This document shows positions 10,082-12,150 of a DNA stretch of 64,000 nucleotides, piece by piece. How positions within the stretch are numbered: position 1 is the first letter of the stretch; each line of letters begins with the position of its first letter. Under the pieces are notes generated by a model. The model saw only the letters and a program-made list of their open reading frames with translations. It was not told where the DNA came from and did not search any database. This stretch comes from an uncultured Candidatus Saccharibacteria bacterium (GTDB taxonomy: Bacteria; Patescibacteriota; Minisyncoccia; Phycocordibacterales; WO2-35-19), in contig CAZVUY010000005.1 in the NCBI GenBank assembly GCA_964630525.1, positions 1,379 to 65,378 on the forward strand, given 5' to 3'. Both the position numbers and the translations under genes were made by a program.

Positions 10082-11347
10082 TTGCCACAAAAATATACCG
10101 CGCCAGTAAAGGTTAGGCCTAAGGCGTTCAAACAGCGCTTGGTGCTAGACGAAGAAACAAAGAATGTGATCTTCAGGTTGTCCAAGATGATGGCTCACCT
10201 CTGGAATATAGGGGTGGAGCAGAGCAAGGTTTGGCTTGAAGAGGTCGCCACGGAGCGTAAAAAGCCGGAAGAAGAAAGAGGCAAAACGACACCGGTGAAT
10301 AGCTTTTCTTTCAACCTCTGGTTGAAGAAATTGAGAGATGCCGGCACAGAAGTGGAAGTGAATAAGGGAATGAAAGAACTTCTTTCGTTGGCCTCTATTG
10401 ATGTGTCACGCCAGGTATTGGCCAGGGTTGCTGATGGTTGGAAAGCTTTCTTTGAAGCCAAAAAGAGGGGGGACACGGAAGTAAGGCCACCCATGCCGAT
10501 GAATCCCGATCACTTTCAAGCTCTTCAGTGGTCAGCGCAACATATCAGGTTGGTCGACGGGGTTTTGAGTTTACCGGCTTTTTCTGGTATCAAACTCAAA
10601 CTTTCGCTCCGGCAGGTAGTCTCCAAACAAAGAGGAGATAATCGTCCTCAAGAGAGTAACTATCTTGAGAGGATGGTTGGCGAGAAGAGTGTGCGATATC
10701 TGACACTCACTTACGATTGGAGGAAAGACGAATTCTTCCTGTCTTGTGTCGTGGGATTACCCCCGACTCCGCTGAAAACGGAGAACCCGTCCCTGTATCG
10801 AGCGATTGACTTAGGGGCGGGGGATATTGCCGTTACAGATTCGGATGGGAGTGAGTTTTTGATTCCATTACGTCGACCAGACAAGTGGCATCAGCCGGAA
10901 ATTGCCAAAATCAATAAACGGCTAAAGAAAAGGAGGGGGTCGAAAAAACTCAAGCGAGCACGCAACCACGCTTTTGAGCGTCAGAGCGATCAGTTTGAGA
11001 CTTTCCAAAAACAGCTGGCTCACAAGTTGGCTGAACCAAAGGTTGAGTGTATTGTGGTGGGGATGCAAAAGATCCGACTGGGCCTCGCTCAATCGGAAGA
11101 TGGCACCCCTAAGCAGCACTACGGAGTGCAAAATACCGGAAATTTGTTTCGGCTCGTACTCTTTCTCCGTAGCAAATGCGAGGAGAGGGGCATCCGATTT
11201 GTTGAGTTACCAGATCCTCGGCGAGAAGGGAGTCTGGACGATCCTGAAAGCAAATTTCAGGCGAGTCGCAACCTCTTGACTCAAGCAGTCGAAGGTACTG
11301 GCGTTTCTGTTCCGGACAAGTTTGTGCGCAAGGGGTTCAAGTGGTGA
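10082..11347 (+). CDS. TnpB/Cas12-like RuvC nuclease (candidate compact type V CRISPR effector, 421 aa)
   Basis: N-terminus resembles the TnpB wedge (KAFKQRLVLDEETKNVIFRLSKMMAHLWNIGVEQ). RuvC-I is AIDLGAGDIAVT (D243). RuvC-II is near KVECIVVGM (E322), about 80 aa later. The RuvC-III-like segment is SLDDPESKFQASRNLL (D386/387), again about 65-80 aa later. No CxxC...CxxC zinc finger between II and III. TTG start with an upstream GGAGAG. Confidence 0.7.
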   Translation: MPQKYTAPVKVRPKAFKQRLVLDEETKNVIFRLSKMMAHLWNIGVEQSKVWLEEVATERKKPEEERGKTTPVNSFSFNLWLKKLRDAGTEVEVNKGMKELLSLASIDVSRQVLARVADGWKAFFEAKKRGDTEVRPPMPMNPDHFQALQWSAQHIRLVDGVLSLPAFSGIKLKLSLRQVVSKQRGDNRPQESNYLERMVGEKSVRYLTLTYDWRKDEFFLSCVVGLPPTPLKTENPSLYRAIDLGAGDIAVTDSDGSEFLIPLRRPDKWHQPEIAKINKRLKKRRGSKKLKRARNHAFERQSDQFETFQKQLAHKLAEPKVECIVVGMQKIRLGLAQSEDGTPKQHYGVQNTGNLFRLVLFLRSKCEERGIRFVELPDPRREGSLDDPESKFQASRNLLTQAVEGTGVSVPDKFVRKGFKW

Positions 11348-12150
11348 GAGGATTGTCCATTTCAAGTCCCGCCTTTGCCAGGAATGGCAAGGTGCGGGAC
11401 TTTTTGTATAATGGATTTATGAATGCTAAGTTTGCTGAAAGATTGTTGATTTATAGAGACAAAAATAGATTGTCTTTTTCTAAAACCATTTTGCTTCAAA
11501 AAATAGAAAATCAGTTTTCAATTGTCAGCAATAGACGGAGGTTTGAAAAATATAGAATGGAAATTGTCTCGGCTCGTGACATACAAAATTTGTTATTGAT
11601 TGAAGGTAGAGCAGCCAGGGAATACTGGAAATTGTTTGGCGTAGAGGTAACCAAGGGTTCAAAAATAATATGGTTTGGGAGAAAACCCCACAAAGATGAC
11701 GTAGCAAACAAACTTTTGGACATAGGATATCATTATCTTACTCAAAAAATAACGGATTTATTTGATTCCTTGGATTTTCCGGTTGAATTTGGTTTTTCTC
11801 ATAAAGCACAAAGCAAGAAGGCTGTTCCTCTGGTCTATGATTTTATTGAATGGTTAAGGCCGTTTATGGTCGATGAAATACTTCTGCGTTTTGTACACAA
11901 AAAGAAAAAATCTATAGATATGTCGAATAAAAAAATTATTCCAATTTTTCTTTCTAAAATAAAACAAAAATTTGAGCAAAAATATTTTCATAGAAACCTT
12001 GATTACTGCATTACGTTAGAGTATTGGATTAAAATTCTAATACTCGAATTTATGGGGGTGGTAAATGGAGGTAAAGAACAATACAAACCCATTTTCCCAA
12101 GTTTAAGACATGAGACCAGATGTAAAACTTGCAAAACAAAAACCGCCTAA
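11341..12150 (+). CDS. cas1: CRISPR-associated endonuclease Cas1, short form with reduced N-terminal domain
   Basis: LLLIEGRAAREYWKLFG aligns with the Cas1 E141 segment. GFSHKAQSKKAVPLVYDFIEWLRP aligns with the Cas1 H208...D218/D221 segment (GFVHTGKPLSFVYDIAD in E. coli). The E-to-H spacing of 66 aa matches E. coli. Only about 88 aa precede the catalytic Glu, versus 141 in E. coli. GTG at 11341 overlaps the effector stop; an alternative ATG at 11419 follows a TATAAT. Confidence 0.85.
   Translation: MVRGLSISSPAFARNGKVRDFLYNGFMNAKFAERLLIYRDKNRLSFSKTILLQKIENQFSIVSNRRRFEKYRMEIVSARDIQNLLLIEGRAAREYWKLFGVEVTKGSKIIWFGRKPHKDDVANKLLDIGYHYLTQKITDLFDSLDFPVEFGFSHKAQSKKAVPLVYDFIEWLRPFMVDEILLRFVHKKKKSIDMSNKKIIPIFLSKIKQKFEQKYFHRNLDYCITLEYWIKILILEFMGVVNGGKEQYKPIFPSLRHETRCKTCKTKTA

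What the first reader, a model, noticed from the sequence alone, without database searches (positions are those of the whole stretch)
11341..12150. Solitary, N-terminally reduced Cas1 (mini-integrase candidate)
Catalytic E88, H154 and D167/E170 align with Cas1 E141, H208 and D218/D221, and the E-to-H spacing is preserved. Only about 88 residues precede the Glu, versus about 140 in E. coli, so the N-terminal beta-sandwich domain appears shortened. No Cas2 is present. Short Cas1-only integrases are known from type V-C. Here the spacers are 30-32 bp, not the shortened 17-19 bp reported for V-C. Both arrays hold the same number of spacers, with a clean repeat structure.
Basis: partly seen in the sequence, partly recalled or inferred. 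Interest (0 to 1): 0.65.

Follow-up and report, generated by a model that had tools for sequence, protein, structure and literature searches.

The report
Domain-stripped Cas1 in a two-gene CRISPR system
This is a real, conserved 243-residue Cas1 that has lost its whole N-terminal domain and has no Cas2 nearby, yet it sits in a tiny two-gene CRISPR system of Patescibacteria whose arrays gain normal-length spacers in nature, so it is a strong candidate for the smallest known spacer integrase.

Summary
The Cas1 call is correct but needs adjusting. The first 26 codons of the mechanical ORF are the effector's stop, a terminator hairpin and a promoter. The N-terminal beta-sandwich is absent, not shortened.

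The gene is not solitary. In more than 20 Patescibacteria loci it sits beside a ~400-aa TnpB/Cas12f-like effector, 39-42 nt repeats, 29-35 nt spacers and a conserved, structured, transcribed ~190-nt leader.

No Cas2 or Cas4 was found in the 64-kb window or within about 6 kb of cas1 in 20 loci.

Assemblies encoding identical Cas1 proteins differ in their spacers. In one lineage only the leader-proximal spacer differs, so adaptation is active in nature.

Other N-terminal-domain-less Cas1 families exist, one of them beside Cas12f-type effectors.

Verdict: a new variant of the known Cas2-less "mini-integrase" kind. It contradicts the simple rule "no Cas2, short spacers".

Activity of Cas1 alone is inferred, not shown.

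One spacer perfectly matches the host's own release-factor gene.

The parts
11419..12150 (+). cas1 CDS: 243 aa, only the alpha-helical catalytic domain plus a ~20-residue family-specific C-terminal tail (FPSLRHETRCK motif). Catalytic codons: E62 11602-11604, H128 11800-11802, D141 11839-11841, E144 11848-11850.
   Evidence: Pfam, NCBIfam and PADLOC Cas1 profiles match from profile position ~90 to the end. 27 homologues share the start and the invariant residues. The AF2 model has pLDDT 92.6 and is almost all helical, and its best PDB matches are Cas1 structures with TMq 0.78-0.81 and TMt ~0.57.
11348..11418 (+). Effector-cas1 intergenic region: a strong hairpin (core ~11363-11400) with a U-tract at 11401-11405, which is a terminator for the effector gene. 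It is followed by a promoter-like ATGGCA-17-TATAAT (11384-11412) that ends 6 nt before the cas1 ATG, so the mRNA would be leaderless or nearly so.
   Evidence: RNA fold of -34.8 kcal/mol with z = -5.9. Promoter scan scores 10/12. The region leaves no coding room for a Cas1 N-terminal domain.
10082..11347 (+). Effector gene: 421-aa TnpB/Cas12f-like protein. The RuvC-I Asp (D243) is invariant. The canonical RuvC-II Glu is replaced by Gly (CIVVGM). There is no zinc finger. The RuvC-III position varies between D and N.
   Evidence: NF040570 guided_TnpB 5.6e-13. PADLOC Cas12_x1 (V-F) 6.7e-14. Family alignment A2. AF2 model with pLDDT 85, best PDB matches AsCas12f and ISDra2 TnpB. The gene is adjacent to mini-cas1 in more than 20 loci.
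12153..12680 (-). CRISPR array B: 7 full 39-nt repeats plus a degenerate terminal repeat next to cas1, and 7 spacers of 30-32 nt. It is transcribed on the minus strand, from the leader towards cas1.
   Evidence: Strand assigned from the leader promoter and from G-U pairs.
12681..12909 (-). Leader B: a conserved structured leader RNA of ~190 nt, with its promoter TTGACA-16-CATAAT at 12909-12882 (minus strand).
   Evidence: nhmmer finds the block next to every array of the family. Covariation is shown. The promoter scores 11/12.
9284..9804 (-). CRISPR array A: 7 full repeats plus a truncated terminal repeat, and 7 spacers. On the minus strand the truncated repeat forms a hairpin with a T-run (9306-9284), which is a likely pre-crRNA terminator.
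9805..10033 (-). Leader A: a second copy of the structured leader, with compensatory differences from leader B. Its promoter is TTGACA-18-TATAGT at 10033-10004 (minus strand).
52587..52616 (+). Perfect 30/30 protospacer for spacer B1 (12263-12292), inside the class I release-factor gene (52249-53244). The 5' flank on the non-target strand reads TTTG(C).

Best explanation
The gene encodes a full-length, functional Cas1 reduced to its catalytic alpha-helical domain, plus a short conserved C-terminal tail. It is the adaptation enzyme of a compact type V CRISPR-Cas module that is widespread in Patescibacteria. The module consists of a ~400-aa TnpB/Cas12f-like effector, this 243-aa Cas1, one or two arrays, and a transcribed, structured ~190-nt leader.

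The most likely mechanism is that a Cas1-only oligomer, without Cas2, integrates prespacers of about 31 bp at the junction between the leader and the first 39-nt repeat, duplicating that repeat.

Shown here:
- Cas1 homology, an intact catalytic tetrad and complete absence of the N-terminal domain.
- Family conservation and strict linkage to one effector and array type.
- Absence of Cas2 at the loci examined.
- Polarity of the arrays, with decayed repeats at the leader-distal end.
- Natural spacer turnover.

Inferred:
- That Cas1 alone is sufficient.
- Its oligomeric state.
- How it measures 31 bp. Because the usual dimerisation and Cas2-docking domain is gone, the ruler must be new. Candidates are a different Cas1 assembly, perhaps using the conserved C-terminal tail, or help from the effector, the leader or a host factor.
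For: 1. Cas1 identity and catalytic residues.
2. The N-terminal domain is absent rather than mis-called. Profile coordinates start at ~90. The AF2 model is almost all helical with pLDDT 92.6. Foldseek gives TMq ~0.8 but TMt ~0.57 against Cas1 structures. The upstream 71 nt are a terminator plus a promoter.
3. A conserved family: 46 close homologues of 202-265 aa, 28 clusters at E<1e-30 in 1.8 billion representatives, and 28-59% identical members across Saccharibacteria, Paceibacterota, Kaiser-, Morani-, Adler- and Staskawiczbacteria.
4. The module is constant. The effector family is adjacent in more than 20 loci. Array period is 70-72 nt everywhere. The leader block lies next to every array.
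5. No Cas2 or Cas4: the small ORFs of the window, 141 small ORFs of 20 loci, the large ORFs of the window, precomputed Pfam for three long contigs, and no recurrent third ORF.
6. Activity in nature. Assemblies with the identical Cas1 P0012 share five old spacers but differ in the leader-proximal one. Four samples with the identical Cas1 P0023 and an identical leader carry 1-3 spacers, none shared among those four.
7. Literature: Cas1 alone is sufficient in type V-C (Wright 2019, as cited in PMC6977970, PMC9419969 and PMC13034035).
Against:
- Only 6-10 kb of flank, or 64 kb for the window, could be inspected. A cas2 or a second CRISPR-Cas system elsewhere in these genomes is therefore not excluded.
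- The N-terminal domain that canonical Cas1 uses for dimerisation is missing (my knowledge of Cas1 structures). It is not obvious that an active integrase can assemble.
- V-C-style Cas1-only complexes take prespacers of about 18 bp, whereas these arrays hold 30-32 bp spacers. A bare Cas1 tetramer does not explain that length.
- cas1 has no clear ribosome-binding site and is unusually AT-rich.
- No protospacers were found for five spacers.
Confidence: 0.68

Rival explanations
1. The mini-Cas1 is only one subunit. It works with a Cas2, or a full Cas1-Cas2, encoded elsewhere in the genome, or with an unrecognised partner that replaces Cas2 and the lost domain.
For: Only part of each genome could be inspected. 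Spacers of 30-32 bp match Cas2-containing integrases better than the V-C tetramer. Some type V systems are thought to borrow adaptation modules in trans (PMC9419969).
Against: No Cas2 was found at 20 loci or in the 64-kb window. No recurrent third ORF exists. The Cas1 domain that docks Cas2 in canonical complexes is absent (my knowledge of the E. coli complex). Patescibacteria genomes are small. The mini-Cas1 co-diverges with this effector and array down to 28% identity.
Confidence: 0.14
2. The Cas1 has been repurposed. It retains nuclease or integrase chemistry, but it serves array and leader duplication, mobility of the module, or another non-adaptation role. Spacer turnover would come from recombination or from another enzyme.
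For: Several loci carry two copies of array plus leader flanking or near the cas genes: window, L003, L007 and L014, and an inverted pair sharing a spacer in L021. One self-derived spacer is present.
Against: New, unique spacers of tightly controlled length (29-35 nt) appear next to the leader in otherwise identical loci. This is the signature of Cas1-type integration, not of recombination. No transposon ends or casposon genes are seen.
Confidence: 0.08
3. The gene is a decaying, 5'-truncated cas1 remnant or an assembly or frameshift artefact, and the true protein is full length.
For: The gene is short and strongly AT-rich compared with its neighbours.
Against: Twenty-seven homologues from independent assemblies share the same start, the same length and the invariant catalytic residues at 31-60% identity to the window protein. 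The upstream DNA is the effector gene plus a terminator. The same gene order, with an intergenic gap of roughly 30-100 nt, recurs in more than 20 loci. The AT bias is a family trait, seen in 18 of 18 loci.
Confidence: 0.02

Closest known systems
Type V-C (and V-D) Cas1 'mini-integrase' (Wright et al. 2019, Mol Cell 73:727; not readable here, known through PMC6977970, PMC9419969, PMC13034035, PMC8390960)
   Same: It is a Cas1 in a type V locus with no cas2, and it is smaller than canonical Cas1. It is presumed to act as a Cas1-only oligomer. It forms a two-protein CRISPR-Cas system.
   Different: - Repeats are 39-42 nt and spacers 29-35 nt here, against roughly half-size repeats and ~17-19 bp spacers in V-C/V-D.
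- The effector is ~400 aa and TnpB/Cas12f-like, not Cas12c or Cas12d, which I recall as much larger proteins (over 1000 aa).
- The host range is Patescibacteria-wide.
- The beta-sandwich domain is completely absent.
- Whether V-C/V-D Cas1 belongs to the same clade could not be tested, because no labelled sequences were available.
Canonical Cas1-Cas2 integrase (E. coli I-E, E. faecalis II-A and others)
   Same: It has the same catalytic fold and the same E/H/D/E active site. The E-to-H spacing is 66 residues here against 67 in E. coli. It sits next to a leader and array with polarised spacer addition, and spacer and repeat lengths are similar.
   Different: It lacks the ~90-residue N-terminal beta-sandwich domain and has no Cas2. 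It carries an extra conserved C-terminal tail beyond the canonical profile.
Other N-terminal-domain-less Cas1 families beside Cas12f-type effectors (loci L037, L038, L040; alignment A6)
   Same: These are 240-255 aa Cas1s that also start at profile position ~85-90. No Cas2 was recognised among the few neighbouring ORFs scanned at these loci. Repeats are 36-37 nt where resolved and spacers 29-32 nt. In a rough NJ tree they cluster with the window family.
   Different: They carry ~20 extra N-terminal residues and a different C-terminal motif (PY.HSWSH). Their effectors are 450-650 aa and match a PADLOC Cas12f model strongly (1e-40 to 1e-46), whereas the window effector matches V-F models only weakly.
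Cas12f / TnpB (effector) and binding-only effectors Cas12m and Cas12c
   Same: The effector has the size and predicted fold of AsCas12f and ISDra2 TnpB. It depends on a long structured RNA encoded next to the array. The replacement of the RuvC-II Glu by Gly resembles the 'RIIr-5' rearranged clade of Altae-Tran 2023.
   Different: It has no zinc finger. The RuvC-III Asp is not conserved. The scaffold RNA is the array leader itself. Nuclease activity is unknown. The tolerated self-targeting spacer hints at binding without cutting.

Membership tests
Cas1 (PF01867 / TIGR00287) | Significant match to the curated Cas1 profile, above its cutoff | tested here: met
   PF01867 scores 74.3 bits (cutoff 22.3). 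TIGR00287 scores 96.4 bits (cutoff 71.7)..
Cas1 (PF01867 / TIGR00287) | Catalytic Glu, His and Asp/Glu residues in the alpha-helical domain | tested here: met
   E62, H128, D141 and E144 are invariant in 27 sequences and align with the motifs of solved Cas1 structures.
Cas1 (PF01867 / TIGR00287) | Two-domain architecture with an N-terminal beta-sandwich domain | tested here: not met
   Profiles match only from position ~90. The AF2 model is almost all helical. TMt is ~0.57 against full Cas1 structures..
Cas1 (PF01867 / TIGR00287) | Encoded next to a CRISPR array | tested here: met
   Array B starts 3 nt after the cas1 stop codon. An array lies close to cas1 in the related loci.
Canonical Cas1-Cas2 adaptation module | cas2 gene in the locus | tested here: not met
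   No Cas2 family hit in the window or among 141 small ORFs of 20 loci.
V-C/V-D-type mini-integrase | Cas1 present and Cas2 absent in a type V locus | tested here: met
V-C/V-D-type mini-integrase | Roughly half-size repeats and spacers (~25 and ~17-19 bp) | tested here: not met
   Repeats are 39-42 nt and spacers 29-35 nt across the family.
V-C/V-D-type mini-integrase | Effector is Cas12c or Cas12d | tested here: not met
   The effector is 421 aa and TnpB/Cas12f-like.
V-C/V-D-type mini-integrase | Cas1 alone integrates DNA in vitro as a tetramer | not testable with these tools
   This needs purified protein.
V-C/V-D-type mini-integrase | Cas1 sequence falls in the V-C/V-D Cas1 clade | not tested
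   No labelled V-C/V-D Cas1 sequence could be obtained. The paper is not held, and the last homology search landed on a 1.1-kb contig.
Type V-F (Cas12f) system | Effector matches Cas12f models and fold | tested here: inconclusive
   There are only weak PADLOC V-F hits (6.7e-14 and 7.4e-8). The best structural matches are AsCas12f and TnpB with TM ~0.55.
Type V-F (Cas12f) system | Canonical RuvC D-E-D triad and zinc-finger (TNB) domain | tested here: not met
   The RuvC-II Glu is replaced by Gly or Ser, there are no CxxC pairs, and the RuvC-III position varies between D and N.
Casposase (Cas1-solo transposase) | Full-length Cas1 with a C-terminal HTH, terminal inverted repeats, no CRISPR array | tested here: not met
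   The protein is a short Cas1 that is always next to arrays and an RNA-guided effector.

The most novel reading that the evidence does not exclude
The catalytic alpha-helical domain of Cas1 alone (27 kDa, with no beta-sandwich domain and no Cas2) is a self-sufficient integrase that still measures full-length ~31-bp spacers and 39-bp repeats. It would do so through a previously unseen assembly, or by using the structured leader RNA/DNA or the TnpB-sized effector as its ruler. With a ~400-aa effector and a leader that doubles as the tracr/omega-like scaffold, this would be the smallest autonomous, adaptation-competent CRISPR-Cas system known, with about 2 kb of coding sequence. It would also be a living intermediate between the TnpB-omegaRNA system and CRISPR.
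Probability: 0.4. Interest if true: 0.82.

Novelty: new variant of a known kind. Interest (0 to 1): 0.62.

Why it matters
Current thinking ties spacer and repeat length to the architecture of the integrase. In that view Cas2 is the ruler, and Cas2-less V-C/V-D systems have half-size spacers. Here a Cas1 that lacks both Cas2 and its own dimerisation/Cas2-docking domain is linked, across a whole bacterial superphylum, to normal-length spacers that turn over in nature.

That makes two open questions directly testable with a 243-residue protein:
- What is the minimal machinery for CRISPR memory formation?
- What sets spacer length?

The complete module is an effector of about 1.2 kb, a cas1 of 0.73 kb, a ~190-nt leader RNA and the array. 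It is also an attractive minimal chassis for molecular recording and for studying how TnpB-omegaRNA systems became adaptive.

Tried and rejected
- **Frameshift or upstream start giving a full-length Cas1:** rejected.
- **Pseudogene:** rejected on family conservation.
- **Cas2 search:** Pfam and PADLOC scans of small ORFs in the window and in 20 loci, and PADLOC on the large window ORFs, found nothing. The NCBIfam scan of large ORFs was swamped by ABC-transporter families and was uninformative.
- **A conserved third small protein in the module:** none found.
- **Direct comparison with V-C/V-D Cas1:** this failed. The Wright 2019 paper and the Tordoff 2025 paper are not held. The supplements of Altae-Tran 2023 are not held. 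The last homology search returned only a 1.1-kb contig. The short-Cas1 family I could place in context turned out to be linked to Cas12f, not to V-C or V-D.
- **Protospacer hunt:** five spacers searched against viral contigs gave no hits.
- **Rfam search of the locus:** no family matched.
- **An apparent second self-target in L021:** it is only a duplicated, inverted array.
- **My first reading of the leader block:** I took it for a plus-strand RNA ending in a terminator. I abandoned this after finding conserved minus-strand promoters, the gene order in distant loci, and G-U pairs.
- **My first reading of the effector as simply nuclease-dead:** I softened this because Glu-to-Gly RuvC-II rearrangements with a relocated Glu are described.
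- **Literature searches for this specific system:** nothing was found.
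Full report
**What is at the coordinates**

The window holds a mechanical ORF at 11341-12150 (+). Its translation matches Cas1. Pfam PF01867 scores 74.3 bits against a gathering score of 22.3, and TIGR00287 scores 96.4 bits against 71.7. In both cases the protein covers only profile positions ~90 to the end. The ~90 positions that describe the N-terminal beta-sandwich domain have no counterpart.

**The true gene start**

A search of 5.8 billion proteins returned 46 relatives of 202-265 aa, at 33-60% identity apart from one identical protein. 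The identical protein, from an NCBI-derived contig, is recorded as 243 aa.

The 71 nt between the stop of the upstream gene (11347) and this ATG fold into a -34.8 kcal/mol hairpin (z = -5.9) followed by UUUUU. They also carry an ATGGCA-17-TATAAT promoter-like site that ends 6 nt before the ATG.

So the CDS is 11419-12150. The catalytic residues are E62, H128, D141 and E144, and they are invariant in the family. Only 61 residues precede the Glu. A frameshift or an upstream exon is excluded, because the upstream DNA is another gene plus its terminator.

An AlphaFold2 model built on the family alignment is confident (pLDDT 92.6) and almost entirely helical. Its best PDB matches are all Cas1 or casposase structures. 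They cover ~80% of the query but only ~57% of the targets.

**Not solitary: a conserved two-gene module**

Immediately upstream (10082-11347) lies a 421-aa TnpB/Cas12f-like gene. It matches NF040570 at 5.6e-13 and weak PADLOC V-F models, and its predicted fold is closest to AsCas12f and ISDra2 TnpB.

Long contigs that carry relatives of the Cas1 show the same pair of genes and nothing else CRISPR-related within 8 kb. A scan of one genome per GTDB species found 30 loci. These extend the family to 28-59% identity across Saccharibacteria, Paceibacterota, Kaiser-, Morani-, Adler- and Staskawiczbacteria. In more than 20 of them the same effector family lies directly beside the mini-cas1, mostly in the order effector then cas1.

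Wherever an array was found, its period is 70-72 nt, with repeats of 39-42 nt and spacers of 29-35 nt. In the window, both arrays have 7 identical full repeats, one truncated terminal repeat and 7 unique spacers of 30-32 nt.

**No Cas2**

- Pfam on all 31 non-overlapped small ORFs of the window gives no Cas2 family.
- PADLOC on the 41 large window ORFs gives no other Cas protein.
- Pfam and PADLOC on 141 small ORFs from 20 related loci give no Cas2 or Cas4 at E < 1e-3.
- No small ORF family recurs between loci.

The limit of these checks is that only 6-10 kb of flank, or 64 kb for the window, could be seen.

**Leader, polarity and RNA**

Each array is followed on one fixed side by a conserved block of ~190 nt. 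The two window copies differ by compensatory substitutions. A profile of the block finds it next to every array of the family. That includes distant loci where the order is effector, cas1, block, array, all on one strand. The block is therefore the leader, and in the window both arrays are inverted relative to the cas genes.

The two best sigma-70-like sites in the region (11/12 matches) sit at the outer ends of the two leaders on the minus strand, at 10033-10004 and 12909-12882.

An alignment of 24 leaders plus first repeats, in that sense, gives a consensus structure in which 14 of 25 pairs show compensatory changes. It has many G-U pairs and few A-C pairs, which fixes the transcribed strand. 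Rfam has no matching family.

The conserved 3' segment of the leader (AAAACCACC) is complementary to the spacer-proximal part of the repeat (GGUGGU). Pairing holds in 88.7% of cells, against 37-56% when the partner is slid, and one A-U pair is switched to C-G in 8 sequences. This fits a tracr/omega-like scaffold encoded by the leader. It could also reflect a conserved half-repeat, so I treat it as tentative.

The truncated or degenerate repeats lie at the leader-distal end in all arrays inspected. In array A the terminal one forms a hairpin plus T-run on the transcribed strand.

**Evidence that adaptation is active**

Four assemblies encode the identical Cas1 P0012. Three of them extend through the whole array and share the five oldest spacers. 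The spacer next to the leader differs between L061/L063 and L062.

Four samples encode the identical Cas1 P0023 with an identical leader. They carry arrays of 1, 2, 2 and 3 spacers, and none of those spacers is shared among the four.

This is the pattern expected from ongoing, leader-polarised acquisition and loss. It occurs in lineages whose only visible adaptation gene is the mini-cas1.

**Relation to other Cas1 proteins**

A profile search of 1.84 billion representatives gave 28 clusters of the family itself. Next came many other short Cas1 proteins (about 200-290 aa) before canonical ~325-aa proteins appear. These short proteins have 0-45 residues ahead of the helical domain, against ~83 in canonical Cas1. 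By PADLOC/TIGR coordinates they also begin at profile position ~75-95.

One such family (alignment A6) could be placed in context. Its loci encode Cas12f-type effectors of 453-649 aa (PADLOC 1e-40 to 1e-46), with 36-37 nt repeats where resolved and 29-32 nt spacers. No Cas2 was recognised among the few neighbouring ORFs scanned.

A rough NJ tree groups the short Cas1s, including the window family, into one clade. This tree is crude: the alignment is anchored on the query profile and there are no support values.

Loss of the N-terminal domain and of Cas2 is therefore broader than this family. It is not tied to short spacers.

**Comparison with the literature**

- Types V-C and V-D lack cas2 and have repeats and spacers about half the usual size (PMC13034035).
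- V-C Cas1 integrates DNA as a tetramer without Cas2 and has a 25-bp target site (PMC6977970, PMC9419969, PMC8390960).
- Altae-Tran et al. 2023 state that V-C and V-D associate only with cas1. They also infer that Cas12 lineages acquired adaptation genes at least 12 times, and they define 40 uncharacterised V-U variants. The present module may be among those variants, but their supplement is not held.
- I found no paper describing this family.
- I could not obtain labelled V-C or V-D Cas1 sequences, so clade membership is untested.

**Effector caveat**

In the effector family the RuvC-I Asp (D243) is invariant. The canonical RuvC-II Glu is Gly or Ser. There is no zinc finger, and the RuvC-III position alternates between D and N.

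Glu-to-Gly changes with a relocated Glu are described for a large TnpB clade that is thought to stay active. A near-invariant Glu (E375) sits on the next strand. Whether the effector cuts or only binds is therefore open.

**Mechanism proposed**

Shown: an intact Cas1 active site on a stand-alone helical domain; fixed linkage to a leader-array unit; polarised turnover of spacers; and no Cas2 nearby.

Inferred: a Cas1-only oligomer integrates ~31-bp prespacers at the leader-repeat junction. In canonical complexes the lost domain forms the Cas1 dimer interface and the Cas2 docking surface (my knowledge of the E. coli and P. aeruginosa structures). Losing it together with Cas2 is therefore coherent, but it requires a new assembly and a new ruler.

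Candidates for the new ruler are the invariant C-terminal tail (R230, E232, R234, C235, which lie beyond the canonical profile), the effector, the structured leader, or a host factor.

**Verdict**

The mini-integrase interpretation is supported by comparative and population evidence, but not biochemically.

It is a new variant of a known kind (Cas2-less type V adaptation). It has two unusual properties: complete absence of the N-terminal domain, and normal-length spacers and repeats.

Noticed in passing
window 12263-12292 (spacer B1) and window 52587-52616 (inside ORF 52249-53244): Spacer B1 is a perfect 30/30 match to the host's own class I peptide chain release factor gene (Pfam PCRF and RF-1 domains). 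The crRNA has the sense of the mRNA, so it would pair with the template DNA strand. The 5' flank reads TTTG(C), which is T-rich and PAM-like. The spacer is the second oldest in its array, and five spacers lie between it and the leader, so they were presumably added later. Self-targeting therefore appears to be tolerated.
   Followed up: partly
window 9805-10033 and 12681-12909 (minus strand); also next to arrays in L001, L003, L005, L007, L008, L010, L013-L016, L019, L023, L025-L028, L035, L036: A ~190-nt structured leader RNA is conserved across the whole family. It has its own TTGACA-N16-18-TATAAT-like promoter. 14 of 25 predicted pairs are covarying, and a 3' segment is complementary to the repeat. 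There is no Rfam match. It is probably the tracr/omega-like scaffold of the TnpB-sized effector.
   Followed up: partly
window 10082-11347 versus 11419-12150; the same genes in 17 other loci: There is a systematic split in base composition. In all 18 loci the effector gene is more GC-rich than its surroundings and cas1 is more AT-rich (window: 0.49 against 0.32, with a locus mean of 0.44).
   Followed up: partly
window 9284-10033 and 12153-12909; L003 6089-6502 and 8745-9583; L007 44-273 and 2399-2771; L014 5347-5947 and 8201-8400; L021 ~2060-2330 and 4128-4293: The array-plus-leader unit is often duplicated, flanking or near the effector-cas1 pair. In the window, L003 and L007 the two leader copies are in the same orientation. 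In L021 the copies form an inverted pair that shares a spacer. In the window the two copies hold the same number of spacers but share none.
   Followed up: partly
window 10082-11347 (residues ~325-390): The effector family lacks the zinc-finger/TNB insertion. It has Gly or Ser in place of the RuvC-II Glu, and a near-invariant Glu (E375) and an invariant Asp (D378) on the following strand. This may be a rearranged or an inactive RuvC site.
   Followed up: partly
window 9306-9284 (minus strand): The truncated terminal repeat of array A forms an 8-bp hairpin followed by TTTTGTT on the transcribed strand, so the decayed repeat may double as the pre-crRNA terminator.
   Followed up: no
L037 1721-2440, L038 7001-7696, L040 6902-7627: A second family of N-terminal-domain-less Cas1 (240-255 aa, C-terminal motif PY.HSWSH) sits beside Cas12f-type effectors of 453-649 aa. 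Spacers are 29-32 nt. No Cas2 was recognised among the few neighbouring ORFs scanned.
   Followed up: partly
window, small ORFs listed (exact ORFs not resolved): Small ORFs in the window hit toxin-antitoxin families (Gp49/HigB-like with HTH_3, and PemK/MazF) and a 23S-rRNA-IVP/bAvd-like four-helix protein. These appear unrelated to the CRISPR locus.
   Followed up: no
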